NCBI GenBank assembly: GCA_965232815.1
Contig: OZ247427.1
Span: 403,684 to 467,683 of the forward strand
DNA: 64,000 nucleotides
Direction of reading: 5' to 3'
Source of the DNA: Dehalococcoidia bacterium
GTDB taxonomy: Bacteria > Chloroflexota > Dehalococcoidia > Lucifugimonadales > UBA3495
Both the position numbers and the translations under genes were made by a program. This document shows positions 27,511 to 32,724 of the stretch, piece by piece (the first letter of the stretch is position 1; the number at the start of each line of letters is the position of its first letter). The notes beneath the pieces were generated by a model. It did not search any database, had not been told where the DNA came from, and saw nothing but the letters and a program-made list of their open reading frames with translations.

Positions 27511-29352
27511 ATGAAAACCGCCTACATCCAGTCCGTCGGCGGCGCCAGCGGCGACATGCTCCTCGGCGCACTCCTCGACGCCGGCCTCCCTCTGGACGCC
27601 ATCCACGCCGCCATCACAGCCCTGAACATCCCCGGCGTCAAAATCAAGGCGGCCGACGAAATCCGCTGCGAAGTCCGCGGAACCCGCGCCCTGGTCGACA
27701 CGTCCGAATCCCCACGCTATTCGCCCCAACAGATGCTCGACGCCGTGGCGGGCGGGACAACGCTATCCGACTCCACGCGCACGCGCGCAACCGCCGTCCT
27801 GAAAGCCCTCTTCGCCGCCGAAGCCCGCGTCCACGGCAACAGTCCCGATGATATCCACCTCCACGAACTCGGCACCGCCGACACCCTCGTGGACGTTGTA
27901 GGAGTCGTCCACGGCCTGGAGCAACTCGGCGTCCAGCGCATCTACGCATCGCCGCTCGTCCTCGGCGAAGCCACTGGCCCGCGCCGACCCGGCGGTTACA
28001 GTAACCCCGCGCCGGCCACCCTCGAAATCATAGCCGCCGCCAGGGCCCCCGTCGCGCCCGACCGACCCTTCCACGCCAACGTCGGCGAACTCACGACCCC
28101 CACCGGCGCAGCCCTCATCACCACCCTCGCCGACGAATACCGCCAGCCCGCCATGACCCTCAACCGCATCGGCGTAGGCGTAGGCGGCAAAAACCCCCCA
28201 GCCTTCCCAAACGTCATCCGCCTCTGGCTCGGCCAGACCGTCCCATCAGTACGCCCCAACCAATCCAATCATTCCCCCGGGCCCAGTGCCGCCGCCCAAT
28301 CCGATCACTCGCCCGAATCCGGCGACCCTGACCATTCCCACGCGTCCGGCGACTCTGACCACTCACTCGCATCCCGCGACTCTGACCATTCCCAACTTTC
28401 CCTTTCCCCCGTTACTCCCGCATCTCCTCGTCATTCCCGCGAAAGCGGGAATCCAGAACCTCCACAATCCGCTATTTCTGAGACTCGCAGAGCACCCCAC
28501 ACCGCTCATGGTGAGCCTGTCGAACCACCAACCGACCAGATTCCGACAGCCGCCCCTGACAGGAACCATCGCACCGATACCTTTTCCCCACGTCATTCCC
28601 GCGAAAGCGGGAATCCAGCACCCTCCCAATCCGCTCATGGTGAGCCTGTCGAACCACGAGCAGCCGGAATGCCAATCGGGTCCGCCGGTGGCAACCGCCA
28701 ATCAGATGTCGAAATGTCGCAAGACCCTGGCACCCATGCCACCCGTCATTCCCCCGAAAGCGGAAATACAGAAACCCTCCAGTCCACTCATAGCGAGCCA
28801 GTCGAACCACGAGCAGCCAGCAACCAACCACCCCCAACCCTAGAAACCGTCCGCGCCGCCGCCCTCGACGCCTACCGGAACCAAGCCGACCCCAACCGTC
28901 ATTCCCGCGAAAGCGGGGGTCCAGAAACCGCCGGCGACCCCAACGTCCCCTTCGCCCGCTGGCAGGACAACATCATCATCCTCGAAACCAACATCGACAA
29001 CGCCACCGGCGAGCAACTCGGATTCGCCATGGACCAGCTCTTCGCCGCCGGAGCCCTCGACGTCTGGCACACCCCCATCCAGATGAAAAAAAACCGCCCC
29101 GGCATCCTCCTGTCAGCCCTGGCGCCCGCCAACCTCGAAACCCAACTGGCCGAAGCCATCCTCCGCCACACCCCAACCCTCGGCGTCCGAGTCCGACCAG
29201 TAGGCCGCTACGTAGCCGACCGCGACACCATAACCGTCCAAACCGAATACGGCCCCATCCGCATCAAACGCAAATGGCTATCCGGCCAAATCCTCACCAT
29301 CTCCCCCGAACACGACGACCTAGTTGCTTTAGCTCGCCACGACCTGTATTAG
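27511..29352 (+). CDS. larC: Nickel-pincer cofactor biosynthesis protein LarC (DUF111) with a greatly expanded inter-domain linker
   Basis: N-terminal 'MKTAYIQSVGGASGDMLLGALLDAG' and 'HELGTADTLVDVVG'. C-terminal 'ILETNIDNATGEQLGFAMDQLFAAGALDVWHTPIQMKKNRPG'. 613 aa; I recall about 400 aa as typical. Confidence 0.85.
   Translation: MKTAYIQSVGGASGDMLLGALLDAGLPLDAIHAAITALNIPGVKIKAADEIRCEVRGTRALVDTSESPRYSPQQMLDAVAGGTTLSDSTRTRATAVLKALFAAEARVHGNSPDDIHLHELGTADTLVDVVGVVHGLEQLGVQRIYASPLVLGEATGPRRPGGYSNPAPATLEIIAAARAPVAPDRPFHANVGELTTPTGAALITTLADEYRQPAMTLNRIGVGVGGKNPPAFPNVIRLWLGQTVPSVRPNQSNHSPGPSAAAQSDHSPESGDPDHSHASGDSDHSLASRDSDHSQLSLSPVTPASPRHSRESGNPEPPQSAISETRRAPHTAHGEPVEPPTDQIPTAAPDRNHRTDTFSPRHSRESGNPAPSQSAHGEPVEPRAAGMPIGSAGGNRQSDVEMSQDPGTHATRHSPESGNTETLQSTHSEPVEPRAASNQPPPTLETVRAAALDAYRNQADPNRHSRESGGPETAGDPNVPFARWQDNIIILETNIDNATGEQLGFAMDQLFAAGALDVWHTPIQMKKNRPGILLSALAPANLETQLAEAILRHTPTLGVRVRPVGRYVADRDTITVQTEYGPIRIKRKWLSGQILTISPEHDDLVALARHDLY
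28249..28956. repeat. Repeat-rich block inside larC: 4 family-A hairpins, 3 family-E hairpins and a short 'gactctgaccat' repeat
   Basis: Family A at 28429..28456, 28591..28618, 28744..28771 and 28897..28924. Family E at 28505..28528, 28634..28660 and 28787..28813. Translated in frame as 'RHSRESGNP' and 'HGEPVEP'. Confidence 0.85.
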
Positions 29353-29354
29353 CG

Positions 29355-30092
29355 TCAATCAGTGCCAAAATAACCGGCATCCATAGCCCAAATCAACATA
29401 CTAGAAAACTCGTTGCTCCGGTGCGTATAGTGCCTTAACCAACGTCGTAGTACCCTATCGGGCTTCCCTGCCGCTTTAAGGGCATTCCACGTCTGCAACG
29501 CTTTCGTTAAATAGTTCCTTCGCAAAAAGGGAAGGTTACGATTAAGGATAGTATCGTCATAGTTTAGGCGTAGGTCCCGGATCGTCCTATTAGCGATATC
29601 TTGGTCAGCTGACGAGTCCAAGTTCGGCTTCGAAACAATTTTGCCGGTCTCAAATTCAATCGAAAAATATCTCTCGACATCATGATCCCTGGGGTTCACG
29701 TAGCCTTGGGCGAACTCAGCTGCGAATCTGCCGTCATCCTTTTCATCGTTACAGCGTTTACACACATACATCAGATTGGTCCACTCGAACGTCTTGGCAT
29801 TGCAGGCGCTGCGTGGGTGGAAATGATCCACACGATTGGCAGATGGAGGGATGTTTGATGTACTGCAAGCCCTTTCACAATAGGCACAGATACCTTCATT
29901 CGGGTTCGGGTTCCCTCTTTCAAATACGGTGGGCAAGCGAGGTGCGCCGAACTGGCCGGCTAACGCGATCATTAGCGTGACATGCTCATCACTTGACAAG
30001 TCCCATACGAACTCACCAGTTTCAGCATTTCTGTGATCCAGTTTAAATGATTCCAAGCAGGCAGGCGATTCTTGGTGTTGGACAGAATGCAT
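29355..30092 (-). CDS. ptuB: HNH endonuclease, TIGR02646/PtuB-like (Septu nuclease component)
   Basis: 'CAYCE...VDHFHPRS...WTNLMYVCKRCNDEK' is an HNH core. The downstream 'YVNPRD...ANRTIRDLRLNYDD' fits my recollection of the TIGR02646 family. The ATG overlaps the upstream TAA (TAATG). Confidence 0.75.
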   Translation of the reverse strand: MHSVQHQESPACLESFKLDHRNAETGEFVWDLSSDEHVTLMIALAGQFGAPRLPTVFERGNPNPNEGICAYCERACSTSNIPPSANRVDHFHPRSACNAKTFEWTNLMYVCKRCNDEKDDGRFAAEFAQGYVNPRDHDVERYFSIEFETGKIVSKPNLDSSADQDIANRTIRDLRLNYDDTILNRNLPFLRRNYLTKALQTWNALKAAGKPDRVLRRWLRHYTHRSNEFSSMLIWAMDAGYFGTD

Positions 30093-31492
30093 TATTCATT
30101 CCCCTCATCTGCTTCAGTCCCGTCATCATCATCCAACAGGTGGGCCAGTTGCTCCAAAAATAACTGATTTTGGGCGGCGATTGGCCCTCCAGCTTCCAAA
30201 TCCCTGCTCACCATGGTCCGCAACTTGTCTGATGCGTCCTGCAACCATGTAGCCGCATCATTCCCAGGTTCCGGCTCCGCCTGCGCCAACAACCAGCGGA
30301 GCGCGGCATTTTCGTCAGGGGTCGTTTCAGCGCTATCGGCCAACTGGACTATTTTCGCGTGAAGCCATTCCTCAGCTTCCCCGGGGGCAGGGCTTTGAGC
30401 GCGGATCCATCGCAAAGTTGCTGCGGCCTCTGCCGTCCGGTCATCGGTTGGATCATGGATCTCCATGAACTCCCGAAGGATCTCCTCCACTGTCCACCCC
30501 CTAATTCTCTCTTTATTCGGGGTAGCGTAGACGATGCCATTTCCCTCTCGGGACAATCGATGCACTTGACCGCTGTTCAATCCGGCAATCACGAATGGAG
30601 AATGGGTGGTAGCAAAAACCTGCAACTTGGGGAAGTGTTCCCGTAGCGCAAAGAGGATCCTCCTCTGCCATGCAGGATGTAGATGGTTCTCGATTTCATC
30701 GATTAGCAGAACACCGGGTTCGTTCTGCCAATTGTCGTTAGCGCGCTCGTCGAACCAGCCATGGAAATAAGCCAGCCTCAAAGCTGCGTACAGTATCCAG
30801 AGATATACATTTTGTGTTCCAGCGCTCATGTCCGCAACGAATGTCCAACCGTCGTTGTCGTCCAGACTGCTCATGCCCATCAGATGGTGGACCTCAGTAA
30901 CGGGGATTAGCTCGCCACGTGCAGTTCGACTGTTGACCCAACTTCTTTCGATATAATCTCCCGGCTTGTCGCCCCTGATGACCTCCGGACAGATCGCCGC
31001 AGCACAAGCCATGGCTTTGACGCCGACTTCCCATATTCGAGAGATCATCTCGGTGTTGTGAATGTCCGAGTAATGATGATTGATCATTGAGGCTACTTCG
31101 GATCCAAAAATCACGGCAGGCGGGTCGCTTGAATCGTTCGGCGGTTCGAATTCCTCATCGTAATACATTCCGATCGGTGCGTACTCTTTGGTTTGCAGCG
31201 GGATCCGAGTAGCTGGAATCCAAACCAATGGCAGGCTCGCTATTTCATTCGTGTCCTCTCCGTTTACGTAAACCTGCCCAATCTTGCCAACCCCTTGTGT
31301 CAAAAATGAGAACAGTTGATGGGGACCTTTGCTTTTGAGAACTCGCAATATTGTCGTCTTTCCAGTGGCATTGGGTCCAATGAAAACATTCACATCCGGA
31401 TCTAGGTTCAAGTCTATCCGGTTGGTGATAGGTAGAACGTTTTGGATCACCGTTCGAGAAATGTAAAGATCCTCAATTGGATCGGTCTTCAT
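30092..31492 (-). CDS. ptuA: ABC/AAA_21-type ATPase, PtuA-like (Septu ATPase component)
   Basis: Walker A 'GPNATGKTT', Walker B/D-loop 'LLIDEIENHLHP' and H-loop 'ATTHSP'. The 'aggaga' RBS supports the ATG at 31492; the track ORF extends to 31555. Sampled lines hand-count to 28/60 and 30/60 G+C. Confidence 0.75.
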   Translation of the reverse strand: MKTDPIEDLYISRTVIQNVLPITNRIDLNLDPDVNVFIGPNATGKTTILRVLKSKGPHQLFSFLTQGVGKIGQVYVNGEDTNEIASLPLVWIPATRIPLQTKEYAPIGMYYDEEFEPPNDSSDPPAVIFGSEVASMINHHYSDIHNTEMISRIWEVGVKAMACAAAICPEVIRGDKPGDYIERSWVNSRTARGELIPVTEVHHLMGMSSLDDNDGWTFVADMSAGTQNVYLWILYAALRLAYFHGWFDERANDNWQNEPGVLLIDEIENHLHPAWQRRILFALREHFPKLQVFATTHSPFVIAGLNSGQVHRLSREGNGIVYATPNKERIRGWTVEEILREFMEIHDPTDDRTAEAAATLRWIRAQSPAPGEAEEWLHAKIVQLADSAETTPDENAALRWLLAQAEPEPGNDAATWLQDASDKLRTMVSRDLEAGGPIAAQNQLFLEQLAHLLDDDDGTEADEGNE

Positions 31493-31572
31493 GGGGCACT
31501 CTCCTATCGGACCATGGTGGTACAAGCGACTTACCGTGCTTCCGGCAATCGTCATGTGCGATTAATCGTGCG

Positions 31573-32724
31573 TCAATACCCCTCCCCCCACAGCCGCCCC
31601 CACTCAGTCCGCAGCGCCTTCCGCACCCGTCCTTTGCCGATCGTATTCAGCCAGTACCCGTTGTGGTACACGTTGCTCGCCGCGTACGCCCACCCGGCCA
31701 GCGGCGACCGCAGCAGCATGTTCTCCAGCGGCTTGAGCGGACCCCAGTAGATCAGCTTCTGACCCTGGCTGGCGAACGTGTTCTCGTTGTCGGCGAAGTT
31801 CCAGTTCACCCGGCTGATATCCGGCTCGTCGCCCACCACCTCGATGTCCCGCATGTCGCCCACGCCCAGGCCGCGCTCGTGCGCCAGCCGTATGAACTTT
31901 ATGGACAGCGGATCAAACCCCATCATCGACGCCACCACGGCGTCCACCGCCACCTGGTCAGCCCCCGCCACGATGCGATCCTTGATGTGCCACCGCATCG
32001 CCCGGGGACCCGGCCCGTCGCCGGCAAACGTCCCGTCGGTAACCGCAAAGATGCCTGGGTGTATCTCCTGCTGAATCGCCAGCAGGTCCACCAGCGTCTC
32101 GTGGATCACCGAATGCGTCCAGTGCCGCTTGCGGTGCAGCAACCCGCCGAACGCATTCTTCATCGCCCCAGTCATCGTCGTGAACACGTGCGTCTTCATC
32201 GTCGGCAGATGCACGATGTTCTTGCCCGCGAACAGCGCCGGAATCTCGATCCCCTCGGGATAGATGTCGTACAGCACCTGCATCTCCGCCTTGGGCTCAT
32301 ACAGCACCCACGGCTCCGGCGGCGTGTCCAGGTGCACCGTCCGCAGCCCGTACTTGTCCTGCACCGGCTTGTGCTTGTTGTTCACCTCGCCCTCGAACGA
32401 GTCCACCACCACAGTCCCGTTGTGCGCCGCGATCAACCCGTCGTTGCGATGCCCCATGTTCTGCAGCCCGCGGACCACCCCCTCCAACTGCCACGGCGTA
32501 GTCGAGCACCCGGGATACCAGTGCTGCCACGAGATGTTGATCTTCAGCAGCGTCTCAACATCCGTCGACAACACCCGCTCCGCCCCCGCCAGCCGCATCG
32601 CCCGCTCCACGTCCGCCAGCACCGTCTTCGGCGTCGTCGCCACCACCGACACCACCGGCGATCCAACCCGCCGCTGTCCCGCCGATTCCGGCGCAGTACC
32701 CAACTGTCCCGCAGTAGTCATCAA
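31573..32724 (-). CDS. DUF362-domain protein
   Basis: 'LLKINISW...', 'HLPTMKTHVFTTMTGAMKNAFGGL' and 'AVTDGTFAGDGPGP' form a DUF362-like pattern. Confidence 0.78.
   Translation of the reverse strand: MMTTAGQLGTAPESAGQRRVGSPVVSVVATTPKTVLADVERAMRLAGAERVLSTDVETLLKINISWQHWYPGCSTTPWQLEGVVRGLQNMGHRNDGLIAAHNGTVVVDSFEGEVNNKHKPVQDKYGLRTVHLDTPPEPWVLYEPKAEMQVLYDIYPEGIEIPALFAGKNIVHLPTMKTHVFTTMTGAMKNAFGGLLHRKRHWTHSVIHETLVDLLAIQQEIHPGIFAVTDGTFAGDGPGPRAMRWHIKDRIVAGADQVAVDAVVASMMGFDPLSIKFIRLAHERGLGVGDMRDIEVVGDEPDISRVNWNFADNENTFASQGQKLIYWGPLKPLENMLLRSPLAGWAYAASNVYHNGYWLNTIGKGRVRKALRTEWGRLWGEGY

What the first reader, a model, noticed from the sequence alone, without database searches (positions are those of the whole stretch)
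29355..31555. Lower-GC two-gene ATPase + HNH island resembling a Septu (PtuA/PtuB) anti-phage system
Two minus-strand genes overlap by one base (TAATG).

- The upstream gene is an ABC/AAA_21-type ATPase with Walker A 'GPNATGKTT', Walker B 'LLIDEIENHLHP' and 'ATTHSP'.
- The downstream gene is a 245-aa HNH protein ('CAYCE...DHFHPRS...NLMYVCKRCNDEK').
- The HNH C-terminal region ('YVNPRD...TIRDLRLNYDD') matches my recollection of the TIGR02646/PtuB family.

ATPase + HNH in this order and at these sizes is the Septu architecture.

- Sampled 60-nt lines here hand-count to 28/60 and 30/60 G+C, against 39/60 in acs, which suggests horizontal acquisition.
- The island is jammed between larC and a DUF362 gene. 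Only 2 nt separate the convergent larC and ptuB stops.
- No reverse transcriptase or other partner gene was found adjacent.
- If the family assignment is wrong, this is an uncharacterised ATPase-nuclease pair in a defence-like context.
Basis: partly seen in the sequence, partly recalled or inferred. Interest (0 to 1): 0.7.

Follow-up and report, generated by a model that had tools for sequence, protein, structure and literature searches.

The report
Hypervariable Septu anti-phage gene pair
The two genes are a genuine stand-alone Septu (PtuA ATPase + PtuB HNH nuclease) anti-phage system, ordinary as a system, but it occupies one fixed chromosomal slot in about 50 related SAR202/Dehalococcoidia species, where its two halves have been repeatedly swapped for very different versions.

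Summary

- **Genes:** ptuA (30092-31492, longest ORF to 31555) and ptuB (29355-30092) overlap in TAATG. G+C is 0.52/0.49, against about 0.65 in the flanks.
- **Family:** PtuA matches PADLOC PtuA models (6e-37). PtuB passes TIGR02646 (61.7 > 52.15 bits). Both AlphaFold models retrieve only solved PtuA/PtuB chains. There is no room for a retron RT or ncRNA.
- **Not a private island:** In 80 species-level Dehalococcoidia/SAR202 genomes, the slot between DUF362 and LarC holds a Septu pair in nearly every inner-clade species. It is empty in many outer-clade species, and it never held another recognised defence family.
- **Divergence:** Flanking proteins are 85-98% identical. PtuA alleles share a median 42% identity and PtuB 30%.
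- **Age and selection:** Allele dS is saturated where host dS is 0.1-0.45. dN/dS is 0.05-0.26.
- **Shuffling:** The PtuA N-module assorts independently of the unit formed by the PtuA C-terminal extension plus PtuB. The switch lies in the conserved Walker B-to-H-loop core. This matches the published PtuA-CTE/PtuB-CTD helical-bundle interface.

Verdict: a new member of a known kind with a notable evolutionary pattern. Defence activity is inferred, not tested.

The parts
30092..31492 (-). ptuA: ABC-type (AAA_15/AAA_21) ATPase of Septu. It is 466 aa from the likely start at M22; the longest ORF reaches 31555.
   Evidence: ORF. PADLOC PtuA 6.2e-37, Pfam AAA_21 2.9e-22 and AAA_15 1.8e-16. Sequence hits to PDB PtuA 8ee4 and 9kjx at about 5e-15. 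The AF2 model has pLDDT 90.2 and its top 50 PDB fold hits are all PtuA. Start supported.
31500..31504 (-). GGAGA ribosome-binding site, 7 nt upstream of the M22 ATG of ptuA
   Evidence: Read directly from the sequence.
31352..31378 (-). Walker A / P-loop, GPNATGKTT (PtuA residues 39-47)
   Evidence: Sequence. G39, N41, G44 and K45 are invariant in 51 alleles.
30773..31492 (-). PtuA N-module (residues 1-240): Walker A lobe, a hypervariable inserted region (about residues 47-215) and the signature motif MSAGTQ. This half of the cassette is exchanged independently of the other half.
   Evidence: Median identity among alleles is 29%, and 20-28% in the core of the insert. Correlation with PtuB type is r = 0.13-0.19. 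There are 31 types at 50% linkage.
30458..30772 (-). PtuA conserved core, the 'hinge' (residues 241-345): Walker B LLIDE, HLHPxWQR and the H-loop ATTHSPF. It is the inferred recombination joint between the two modules.
   Evidence: Median identity is 72-78% among alleles. The longest shared exact DNA run has a median of 14 nt (maximum 86), against 8 nt in a control segment. The PtuA-PtuB correlation switches across it. DNA identity to the nearest hosts bumps to 62-70% here.
30095..30457 (-). PtuA C-terminal extension (residues 346-466), all-helical, the predicted PtuB-docking module. In this allele it contains a duplicated helix-loop-helix (about 30245-30430).
   Evidence: AF2 helices H351-458. 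Identity pattern co-varies with PtuB, r = 0.68-0.82. Published PtuA-CTE/PtuB-CTD nine-helix bundle (PMC12819146).
29355..30092 (-). ptuB: HNH nuclease of the TIGR02646 family, 245 aa, start codon overlapping the ptuA stop (TAATG)
   Evidence: TIGR02646 61.7 bits against a cut-off of 52.15, PADLOC PtuB 2e-20, Pfam HNH 8.7e-07. The AF2 model has pLDDT 74.8 and its top 11 PDB hits are all PtuB chains, including Septu 8eea_G.
29733..29897 (-). HNH catalytic core of PtuB (residues 66-120: CAYCE ... DHFHPRS ... NLMYVCKRCNDEK)
   Evidence: C69, C72, E73, H90, P93, W104, N106, C114 and K118 are invariant, and C111 is at least 90% conserved, in 51 alleles.
29379..29534 (-). PtuB helical C-terminal domain (residues 187-238), the predicted partner of the PtuA C-terminal extension
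   Evidence: AF2 helices H187-207, H212-222 and H230-238. Published interface. Co-inheritance with the PtuA CTE.
31573..32724 (-). DUF362 gene: the conserved left anchor of the variable slot. DNA identity to relatives stays at about 90-94% up to its stop codon.
27511..29352 (+). larC (Ni-insertion, LarC family): the conserved right anchor, convergent with ptuB. DNA identity resumes at about 85-95% right after its stop codon.

Best explanation
**What it is.** This is a stand-alone two-gene Septu defence system.

**How it most likely works (inferred by homology to studied Septu and retron I-A PtuAB).**
- PtuA is an ABC-type ATPase that oligomerises.
- Paired helical C-terminal extensions of PtuA hold the helical C-terminal domain of the HNH nuclease PtuB.
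- On phage infection the nuclease is licensed. It cuts a host or phage nucleic acid (tRNA-Tyr variable loop and/or supercoiled DNA in the studied systems). Phage replication stops.

**What is shown here.**
- Family membership of both proteins.
- Intact catalytic motifs.
- Translational coupling of the two genes.
- PtuA and PtuB folds for the predicted structures.
- Absence of retron parts.

**Evolution of the locus.**
- The pair is one allele of a hypervariable locus fixed between DUF362 and LarC in a clade of about 50 SAR202/Dehalococcoidia species.
- Alleles are much older than the host species and are under purifying selection.
- They are exchanged between species as two half-cassettes: the PtuA N-module, and the PtuA C-terminal extension together with PtuB.
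- The inferred mechanism is homologous recombination anchored in the two flanking host genes and in the conserved ATPase core.
- The most likely driver is phage-imposed frequency-dependent (balancing) selection on specificity. The hypervariable N-module is my candidate for the trigger-sensing part. Both the driver and the sensor role are inferred.
For: **Family**
- PADLOC PtuA 6.2e-37 and PtuB 2e-20. Pfam AAA_21, AAA_15 and HNH are above cut-off. TIGR02646 scores 61.7 against a cut-off of 52.15.
- Sequence hits to solved PtuA (8ee4, 9kjx) and PtuB.
- The AF2 PtuA model (pLDDT 90.2) has only PtuA chains in its top 50 PDB hits. The PtuB model (pLDDT 74.8) has only PtuB chains in its top 11.

**Mechanism in studied relatives**
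- The PtuA-CTE/PtuB-CTD nine-helix bundle, DNA nicking, ATP inhibition in Septu and sensitisation by a phage tail fibre are reported or cited in PMC12819146.
- In PMC13096335, Septu Ec-B88 needs Walker A/B and HNH and cleaves the tRNA-Tyr variable loop.

**Locus**
- The same slot is occupied in L001, L003-L005 and L007 and in nearly all of the 45 or so inner-clade species genomes.
- All 51 alleles match PtuA models and TIGR02646.
- Flanking proteins are 85-98% identical, against PtuA 39-44% and PtuB 44-52% to the window.
- Allele medians are 42% (PtuA) and 30% (PtuB), against 88% for DUF362. Mantel correlation with the host is r = 0.24 for PtuA and 0.06 (not significant) for PtuB.
- Divergence boundaries are sharp and fall at the two stop codons.

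**Allele age**
- Host dS is 0.09-0.45 where allele dS is saturated. For example, L003-L035 hosts have dS 0.09 but PtuA is 39% and PtuB 28% identical.

**Recent module transfer**
- L034-L035 PtuB dS is 0.17, against host 0.47.
- L029-L031 N-module dS is 0.12, hinge 0.97 and CTE 2.77, against host 0.40.

**Two modules**
- PtuA residues 1-300 correlate with PtuB at r = 0.13-0.19. Residues 321-466 correlate at r = 0.68-0.82.
- There are 31 N-module types and 8 CTE+PtuB types, with 15 four-gamete violations.

**Selection and coupling**
- dN/dS is 0.05-0.26.
- ptuA-ptuB spacing is 6 nt or less in 49 of 51 alleles.

**Loss and gain**
- Outer-clade empty sites have spacers of -7 to 143 nt.
- L050 keeps about 60 nt of a PtuB 3' end, so it is a deletion remnant.
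- L021 and L044 carry tandem double pairs.
Against: - No experiment shows defence. No phage of these uncultured bacteria is available.
- Near-universal retention at one core-genome site is atypical for defence systems. It could instead reflect addiction or a domesticated role.
- The window allele has no consensus sigma-70-type promoter in its 80-nt leader, so expression is unverified.
- The target (tRNA or DNA) and the trigger are extrapolated from E. coli systems that are only 14-22% identical in structure-based alignments.
- Balancing selection is inferred from the pattern. No within-population allele frequencies were examined.
- Trees and dS values come from simple NJ and Nei-Gojobori calculations on MAGs, not from formal recombination or reconciliation tests.
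- The PtuA-PtuB interface was not modelled as a complex.
Confidence: 0.85

Rival explanations
1. The pair persists mainly as a selfish addiction module (toxin-antitoxin-like), or has been domesticated for a host function such as DNA or RNA housekeeping. Anti-phage defence would not be its main role, which would explain why almost every inner-clade genome keeps one at the same site.
For: - Occupancy is near-universal in the inner clade.
- Purifying selection, with dN/dS of 0.05-0.26.
- PtuAB is toxic when released in the retron systems (PMC12819146).
- No other defence family ever uses this slot.
Against: - A housekeeping role does not predict 30-42% median identity between species whose flanking proteins are 88% identical, or the saturated dS, the persistent foreign composition and the module shuffling.
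- Clean empty sites, a deletion remnant (L050) and decayed copies (L010, L014, L037) show the pair can be lost.
- All family evidence points to Septu.
Confidence: 0.08
2. The alleles diverged in place by vertical descent with extremely accelerated evolution (arms-race positive selection or local hypermutation), without replacement or exchange.
For: - Position is constant across the clade, and all alleles belong to one PtuA clade. Their hinge is 58-78% identical, against 38% to an outgroup.
- There is a weak but significant host-PtuA correlation, Mantel r = 0.24, p = 0.006.
Against: - Synonymous sites are saturated where host dS is 0.09-0.45.
- Some modules are younger than the host split.
- PtuA and PtuB histories are discordant: L029/L031 share 84% against 26%, and L026/L027 share 55% against 94%.
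- There are 15 four-gamete violations.
- Gene-wide dN/dS is 0.05-0.26, which is not positive selection.
Confidence: 0.04
3. The pair is the effector half of a type I-A retron (Ec78/Eco7-like) whose reverse transcriptase and ncRNA lie nearby or were lost.
For: - The PADLOC retron models ATPase_I-A (5.6e-31) and HNH_I-A (5.1e-22) score well.
- The NCBIfam PtuA/PtuB retron equivalogs are the top-named hits.
- The top PDB fold hits include retron complexes.
Against: - The immediate neighbours are DUF362 (80 nt upstream) and LarC (2 nt downstream), which are adjacent to each other in empty-site genomes. No ORF or room for an RT exists in any of the single-pair occupied sites.
- The Rfam scan of the whole window is empty.
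- The retron equivalog scores are far below cut-off: 112 against 500, and 73.9 against 150.
- The stand-alone PtuA models score higher than the retron model.
Confidence: 0.02
4. The apparent hypervariability is an artefact of metagenome assembly or binning, with chimeric MAGs joining foreign low-GC fragments to SAR202 flanks.
For: All genomes are MAGs. Regions of odd composition are prone to mis-binning.
Against: - The locus lies inside contigs of 0.7-4.7 Mb, many labelled as a single chromosome, in more than 25 independent assemblies.
- The divergence boundaries coincide with stop codons, and every copy in the 51-allele set is an intact, translationally coupled ORF pair.
- The same allele was recovered from independent samples: L001/L002 and L005/L006.
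Confidence: 0.01

Closest known systems
Stand-alone Septu (PtuA/PtuB), e.g. E. coli Septu (PDB 8EE4/8EE7/8EEA; Li et al. 2024) and Septu Ec-B88 (PMC13096335)
   Same: - Two co-oriented, coupled genes, with the ABC ATPase first and the TIGR02646 HNH nuclease second.
- Walker A/B, signature motif, H-loop and HNH residues are all present.
- A helical PtuA C-terminal extension and a helical PtuB C-terminal domain.
- The predicted folds retrieve these structures. There is no retron.
   Different: - Only 16-17% (PtuA) and 16% (PtuB) identity to the solved Septu chains in structure-based alignments.
- The host is an uncultured Dehalococcoidia/SAR202 bacterium.
- The pair sits at a fixed core-genome slot rather than on a recognisable island or mobile element.
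- Trigger and target are untested.
- This allele's CTE carries a duplicated helical hairpin.
Type I-A retron effectors PtuAB (retron Ec78/Eco7, Ec83)
   Same: Homologous ATPase and HNH proteins. They share the same CTE-CTD helical-bundle interface, which here is mirrored by co-inheritance of the PtuA CTE with PtuB.
   Different: - No RT, no ncRNA/msDNA, and none of the retron-specific PtuA elements were identified.
- The NCBIfam retron equivalog cut-offs are not reached.
Core defence hotspots flanked by conserved genes (e.g. P. aeruginosa cDHS, PMC10250203; Acinetobacter hotspots, PMC11723918)
   Same: A variable defence cargo sits between conserved core genes, with occupied and empty states and sharp boundaries.
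   Different: Those hotspots hold many unrelated systems. This slot held only Septu (about 55 occupied sites). The variation is allelic, within one family, and is shuffled at an internal joint.
Allelic type I restriction-modification families at the E. coli immigration control region (from my own knowledge, not checked here)
   Same: Highly divergent versions of one kind of defence system occupy the same chromosomal locus as alleles and are exchanged by recombination in conserved flanks. Specificity modules are reassorted.
   Different: A different enzyme family. There the shuffled module is the HsdS target-recognition domain. Here it is the PtuA N-module against the CTE+PtuB unit.
PARIS (AriA/AriB), Gabija and OLD-family ABC ATPase-nuclease systems
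   Same: They have a related ABC ATPase of the AAA_15/AAA_21 type paired with a nuclease. The AriA model hits at 1.1e-23.
   Different: Their nuclease partner is TOPRIM/OLD-type, not an HNH of TIGR02646. The PtuA models score much better than the AriA model.

Membership tests
Septu (PtuA/PtuB) | PtuA: an ABC-type ATPase (AAA_15/AAA_21) that matches PtuA profile models | tested here: met
   PADLOC PtuA 6.2e-37, and 23 of the 25 best models are PtuA. Pfam AAA_21 scores 80.5 bits (cut-off 27) and AAA_15 61.2 bits (cut-off 32.1). All 51 site alleles match.
Septu (PtuA/PtuB) | Intact ATPase motifs: Walker A, signature, Walker B and H-loop. Walker A/B are required for defence in Septu Ec-B88. | tested here: met
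   GPNATGKTT, MSAGTQ, LLIDE and ATTHSP are present. G39, N41, G44, K45, S223, G225, D265 and H297 are invariant in 51 alleles. The requirement is from PMC13096335.
Septu (PtuA/PtuB) | PtuB: an HNH nuclease of the TIGR02646 family with catalytic residues | tested here: met
   TIGR02646 scores 61.7 bits, above its cut-off of 52.15. Pfam HNH scores 29.4, above 21.4. PADLOC PtuB 2e-20. C69, C72, H90, N106 and C114 are invariant. 51 of 51 alleles match TIGR02646.
Septu (PtuA/PtuB) | Two adjacent co-oriented genes, ptuA upstream of ptuB, with no further obligatory partner | tested here: met
   One-base TAATG overlap. Spacing is 6 nt or less in 49 of 51 alleles. The slot contains only these two genes.
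Septu (PtuA/PtuB) | Overall fold of both proteins like solved PtuA and PtuB | tested here: met
   The top 50 Foldseek PDB hits of the PtuA model are all PtuA (E about 1e-14, TM 0.4-0.5; the proteins are multi-domain and flexible). The top 11 hits of the PtuB model are all PtuB (TM 0.55-0.72).
Septu (PtuA/PtuB) | The PtuA C-terminal extension binds the PtuB C-terminal helical domain to form a complex | tested here: inconclusive
   Both regions are predicted helical, and they are co-inherited, r = 0.68-0.82. This is consistent with the published interface, but no complex was modelled or measured.
Septu (PtuA/PtuB) | Confers resistance to phage, with a nuclease activated on infection | not testable with these tools
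   This needs expression and phage challenge. No cultured host or phage exists.
Type I-A retron (Ec78/Eco7) | Reverse transcriptase gene adjacent to ptuA/ptuB | tested here: not met
   The neighbours are DUF362 and LarC at 80 nt and 2 nt. No intervening ORF exists here, and none exists in any single-pair allele.
Type I-A retron (Ec78/Eco7) | msr/msd non-coding RNA | tested here: not met
   No Rfam family reaches its gathering score anywhere in the 64-kb window. The leader is only 80 nt. An unmodelled RNA cannot be formally excluded.
Type I-A retron (Ec78/Eco7) | NCBIfam equivalog scores for the retron PtuA and PtuB (NF041760, NF041761) | tested here: not met
   112 bits against a cut-off of 500, and 73.9 bits against a cut-off of 150.
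Core defence hotspot (multi-system) | Conserved core genes flank a slot with occupied and empty states | tested here: met
   The DUF362 and LarC flanks are about 90% identical in DNA. There are 14 empty sites plus one deletion remnant.
Core defence hotspot (multi-system) | The slot holds diverse, unrelated defence systems across genomes | tested here: not met
   All of the roughly 55 occupied sites hold PtuA/PtuB. The odd occupants are housekeeping genes or have no PADLOC hit.
PARIS / OLD-family ATPase-nuclease systems | TOPRIM/OLD-type nuclease partner or domain | tested here: not met
   No TOPRIM domain is found in either protein. The partner is an HNH. The AriA model scores below the PtuA models.

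The most novel reading that the evidence does not exclude
This Septu locus is a long-lived, trans-species balanced polymorphism embedded in the core genome of a SAR202/Dehalococcoidia clade, many of whose MAGs carry sponge-metagenome isolate names.

- Dozens of ancient allele lineages are kept at one slot.
- Immune specificity is re-dealt by recombination at the conserved ATPase core. This pairs any of many PtuA N-modules (the putative phage sensors) with any of a few effector units made of the PtuA C-terminal extension plus PtuB.
- It would be a bacterial, MHC-like, two-module combinatorial immune locus.
- The natural chimeras would map the Septu sensor and the PtuA-PtuB docking module without any structure.
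Probability: 0.5. Interest if true: 0.6.

Novelty: new member of a known kind. Interest (0 to 1): 0.45.

Why it matters
**As a system.** It adds a divergent Septu from an uncultured phylum and nothing more.

**The locus-level pattern is the useful part.**
- About 50 natural alleles and many natural chimeras sit at one orthologous site. Together they form a ready-made mutational map of Septu.
- The co-inherited unit (PtuA C-terminal extension plus PtuB) independently recovers the interface seen by cryo-EM.
- The freely reassorting, hypervariable N-module is a concrete candidate for the still poorly defined trigger-sensing part of PtuA.

**Wider point.** A defence system can be a stable core-genome resident and still turn over by allelic replacement. 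Surveys that count only presence or absence would miss this kind of turnover.

Tried and rejected
- **Exact look-ups of the window proteins.** The look-up of encoding contigs found nothing for the window's own PtuB and PtuA, although identical proteins P0121 and P0001 exist in the protein database. Context therefore had to come from relatives.
- **Rfam and tRNA scans.** Both were empty across the whole window. There is no retron RNA and no tRNA integration site.
- **Promoter and terminator scan.** The single promoter-like site is on the wrong strand, and the counts for both site types are at or below the shuffle expectation.
- **Profile search with the PtuB allele alignment.** It added only four new proteins, so the PtuB structure model rests on a shallow 12-sequence alignment (pLDDT 74.8).
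- **Searches for a mobile shuttle.**
  - IMG/VR viral contigs, GenBank phages and PLSDB plasmids gave only distant matches to the conserved ATPase core, at 24-49% identity.
  - The one longer viral-contig hit (L093) is an unrelated distant PtuAB.
- **Literature.**
  - The search combining Septu with balancing selection returned nothing relevant.
  - The SAR202/sponge and Chloroflexota/sponge-symbiont searches turned up no title on this locus; none of those papers were opened.
  - Li et al. 2024 (PMC12318543) is not held, so its findings are cited second-hand from PMC12819146 and PMC13096335.
- **Flanking repeats.** I looked by eye for target-site duplications or inverted repeats at the cassette ends in occupied and empty sites and saw none.
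- **Rejected readings.** I considered a retron remnant, in-situ hyper-evolution, an assembly artefact and a multi-system hotspot. The reasons for rejecting each are given under the rival explanations and the membership tests.
- **Promoter-like box.** The count by a strict pattern (9 of 51) is an underestimate, because my ORF starts were set at the first possible start codon.


Full report
**1. The observation**

The two minus-strand ORFs exist exactly as described: 30092..31555 (487 aa) and 29355..30092 (245 aa).
- The junction reads GAATAATGCAT, so the ptuA stop (TAA) and the ptuB start (ATG) share one base.
- The ptuB stop and the convergent larC stop are 2 nt apart.
- All quoted motifs are present.
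- G+C falls from about 0.63-0.69 to 0.48-0.56 across the pair. Per gene it is 0.520 and 0.485, against 0.645-0.669 in the flanks. GC3 is 0.57 and 0.52, against 0.71-0.89.
- One correction concerns the start of ptuA. It is most likely the second in-frame ATG at 31492 (M22, 466 aa). This ATG has a GGAGA 7 nt upstream, it is the start used by the database gene call P0001, and it aligns with the N-termini of the homologues.

**2. What the proteins are**

PtuA:
- It hits PADLOC PtuA models at up to 6.2e-37, and 23 of the 25 best models are PtuA.
- It passes Pfam AAA_21 and AAA_15.

PtuB:
- It hits PADLOC PtuB at 2e-20 and Pfam HNH.
- It passes NCBIfam TIGR02646 above its curated cut-off, 61.7 against 52.15 bits.

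The retron-specific NCBIfam equivalogs are far below their cut-offs: 112 against 500 bits, and 73.9 against 150 bits.

Structure evidence:
- Sequence searches of the PDB return PtuA of Septu (8ee4) and of retron I-A complexes, and PtuB chains.
- The AlphaFold model of PtuA (pLDDT 90.2) has only PtuA chains among its top 50 PDB fold hits.
- The PtuB model (pLDDT 74.8) has only PtuB chains in its top 11, including Septu 8eea_G.

No retron is present.
- The neighbours are DUF362, 80 nt upstream, and LarC, 2 nt downstream.
- Rfam finds nothing in the window and there is no tRNA gene.

So this is a stand-alone Septu pair.

**3. How it most likely works**

This section is inferred from studied relatives.
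- In the retron I-A PtuAB complexes, a pair of PtuA C-terminal extensions (CTE) sandwiches the helical C-terminal domain (CTD) of one PtuB in a nine-helix bundle; that paper reports both elements as well conserved in Septu (PMC12819146).
- The same paper reports or cites three further points. PtuAB nicks supercoiled DNA, ATP inhibits this activity in Septu, and Septu is sensitised by a phage tail fibre.

The window proteins keep all of these motifs. They also have an all-helical CTE (H351-458) and a helical PtuB CTD (H187-238). I therefore expect an ATPase-scaffolded HNH nuclease that is licensed by infection. Which nucleic acid it cuts, and what triggers it, are not known for this allele.

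**4. It is not a private island**

The slot is shared across the clade.
- Look-ups of the closest PtuB homologues showed the pair at the same place in five independent assemblies. The gene order is adh_short, luciferase-like, DUF362, PtuA, PtuB, and then convergent LarC, LarE and glyoxalase.
- A scan of species-representative genomes with DUF362 returned 80 loci. All are Dehalococcoidia / SAR202-cluster MAGs, and many have sponge-metagenome isolate names.
- In the inner clade (DUF362 at least 82% identical), essentially every genome has an ATPase+HNH pair in a 2.0-2.5 kb gap between the DUF362 and LarC stops.
- L021 and L044 carry two pairs in tandem.
- L047 carries an unknown ORF followed by one pair.
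- L010, L014 and L037 have a decayed ptuA.
- Fourteen outer-clade genomes have DUF362 and LarC separated by -7 to 143 nt, which is an empty site.
- The only 'empty' inner-clade genome, L050, retains about 60 nt of a PtuB 3' end of the L041/L042 type. It is therefore a secondary deletion.
- On a DUF362 tree the inner clade is uniformly occupied and the outer clade is mixed. Some occupied and empty genomes are sisters.
- All 51 extracted alleles match PtuA models and TIGR02646.
- The few other occupants are housekeeping genes or have no hits. No other defence family was seen in the slot.

**5. The alleles are extraordinarily divergent and old**

Divergence:
- Between the window and its relatives the six flanking proteins are 74-98% identical. 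PtuA is 39-44% and PtuB 44-52%.
- Across the 51 alleles the median identity is 42% for PtuA and 30% for PtuB, against 88% for DUF362.
- Allele similarity hardly follows host relatedness. Mantel r is 0.24 for PtuA and 0.06 (not significant) for PtuB.
- DNA identity to the nearest hosts is about 90-94% up to the DUF362 stop. It falls to 30-50% inside the cassette, with one bump of 62-70%, and returns to about 85-95% right after the LarC stop.

Age:
- Host dS is 0.27-0.45 between the window and L008, L009, L005 and L011, while allele dS is saturated.
- L003 and L035 have host dS 0.09 but PtuA is 39% and PtuB 28% identical.
- Conversely, some modules are younger than the host split. L034-L035 PtuB has dS 0.17, against host 0.47. 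The L029-L031 N-module has dS 0.12, against host 0.40.

Selection and composition:
- dN/dS is 0.05-0.26 gene-wide. Per-module medians are 0.19 (variable N region), 0.07 (hinge) and 0.17 (CTE).
- Every allele keeps a foreign composition. Mean GC3 is 0.59/0.60 against 0.87 for the host, and no allele comes closer than 0.08.

Together these results exclude in-place vertical divergence and exclude decay. They indicate old, functional allele lineages that are exchanged between species.

**6. Two exchangeable modules**

- PtuA and PtuB partners are often mismatched. L029/L031 share 84% in PtuA but 26% in PtuB. L026/L027 share 55% in PtuA but 94% in PtuB.
- I sliced PtuA and compared each slice's identity matrix with the PtuB matrix.
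  - Residues 1-300 are nearly uncorrelated with PtuB type (r = 0.13-0.19).
  - Residues 321-466 correlate strongly (r = 0.68-0.82).
  - The switch lies in the only well-conserved block, residues 241-345 (Walker B to H-loop, 72-78% median identity).
- In that block, allele pairs share exact DNA runs with a median of 14 nt and a maximum of 86 nt. A control segment gives 8 nt.
- At 50% single linkage there are 31 N-module types and 8 CTE+PtuB types, in 38 combinations, with 15 four-gamete violations.
- L029-L031 shows the breakpoint directly: N-module dS 0.12, hinge 0.97, CTE 2.77.
- The co-inherited unit is exactly the pair of elements that form the published CTE-CTD bundle.
- The window allele is a singleton in both modules.

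**7. Where alleles come from**

- No close relative is on phages, plasmids or IMG/VR contigs.
- Members of the same PtuA clade do occur off-site.
  - L115 (P0002) lies beside a phage-type integrase and a transposase fragment. L116 (P0005) lies in another context.
  - Their hinge is 58-63% identical to the site alleles. The window's own hinge is 59% identical, and an outgroup's is 38%.
  - The window's N-module is closer to L115 (43%) than to any site allele (31% or less).
- So import from an off-site pool is plausible.

**8. Comparison with what is known, and novelty**

- As a system this is a new, divergent member of Septu.
- It fails the retron I-A tests.
- It fails the defining feature of multi-system defence hotspots, because only one family ever occupies the slot.
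- The closest evolutionary parallel I know is the set of allelic type I R-M families at the E. coli immigration control region. That comparison is from my own knowledge and was not checked here.
- The one search aimed at this pattern, Septu with balancing selection, returned nothing relevant. The other searches showed no title describing a Septu-only hypervariable locus or module shuffling in Septu, and I opened only two of the papers. Absence from the held library is not proof of novelty.

**9. Caveats**

- All genomes are MAGs. However, many are megabase single contigs, and the same alleles recur in independent samples.
- Trees, dS values and clustering used simple methods.
- No complex was modelled.
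- Defence, target, trigger, expression and balancing selection are all inferences.

**Verdict**

The finding is real and correctly interpreted. The system itself is ordinary. The interesting part is the fixed-site, two-module allelic turnover, hence the moderate interest score.

Noticed in passing
window 28250-28950 (inside larC, 27511-29352, plus strand): larC carries an in-frame insertion of about 220 codons. It is made of four copies of a unit of about 153-162 nt, each containing the palindrome GTCATTCCCGCGAAAGCGGGAATCC, plus shorter 27-36 nt repeats. LarC is 613 aa here, against 384-451 aa in most relatives and 699 aa in L117. A repeat element has therefore expanded inside a coding gene without breaking the frame.
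   Followed up: partly
L021:11249-15523 and L044:11180-15554: Two complete, different Septu pairs sit in tandem in the same DUF362|LarC slot. These may be intermediates of allele replacement, that is, insertion next to the resident copy followed by loss.
   Followed up: partly
L047:11175-12353: A 392-aa ORF of host-like G+C lies between DUF362 and the Septu pair. It has no Pfam or PADLOC match, and it is the only unexplained extra occupant of the slot.
   Followed up: partly
L050:11143-11231: The 87-nt spacer of this apparently empty site retains about 60 nt of a PtuB 3' end that is nearly identical to the L041/L042 alleles. It is a footprint of deletion of the whole pair.
   Followed up: yes
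L007:4687-6825 (minus strand): A second AAA_15/AAA_21 ATPase (449 aa) with a 262-aa partner of unknown family lies just beyond the glyoxalase gene. It is possibly another ATPase-effector defence pair near the same locus.
   Followed up: no
upstream of ptuA in L009, L012, L013, L016-L018, L029, L031, L039 and L051 (e.g. L017:11150-11230): Tandem nCAGGAT-type short repeats (e.g. ACAGGATATACAGGATGAACGGGGAT) precede a G(G/T)TA(G/A/C)AATG promoter-like box and a GGAGGTG ribosome site in a subset of alleles. The window allele has neither the repeats nor the box.
   Followed up: partly
L001/L033:13741-17000 (L033 coordinates): In this genome the LarC side of the slot is replaced by IS elements (a DDE_Tnp_1 transposase and an IS21-type IstA/IstB pair) and unknown ORFs. 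The right-hand anchor has been lost by rearrangement.
   Followed up: no
L004:5360-6507: DUF362 is split into two ORFs (204 + 178 aa) in this assembly. This is either a frameshift or a sequencing error in the left anchor gene.
   Followed up: no
window 30245-30430 (PtuA residues about 355-416): The C-terminal extension of this allele contains an internal duplication of a helix-loop-helix: AAATLRWIRAQSPAPGEAEEW and ENAALRWLLAQAEPEPGNDAATW. The majority consensus of the 51 site alleles shows only a single such hairpin.
   Followed up: partly
window-wide (1-64000): GC skew is persistently negative across 20-40 kb (cumulative skew falls steadily). No tRNA gene and no Rfam family was found anywhere in the 64 kb.
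   Followed up: no
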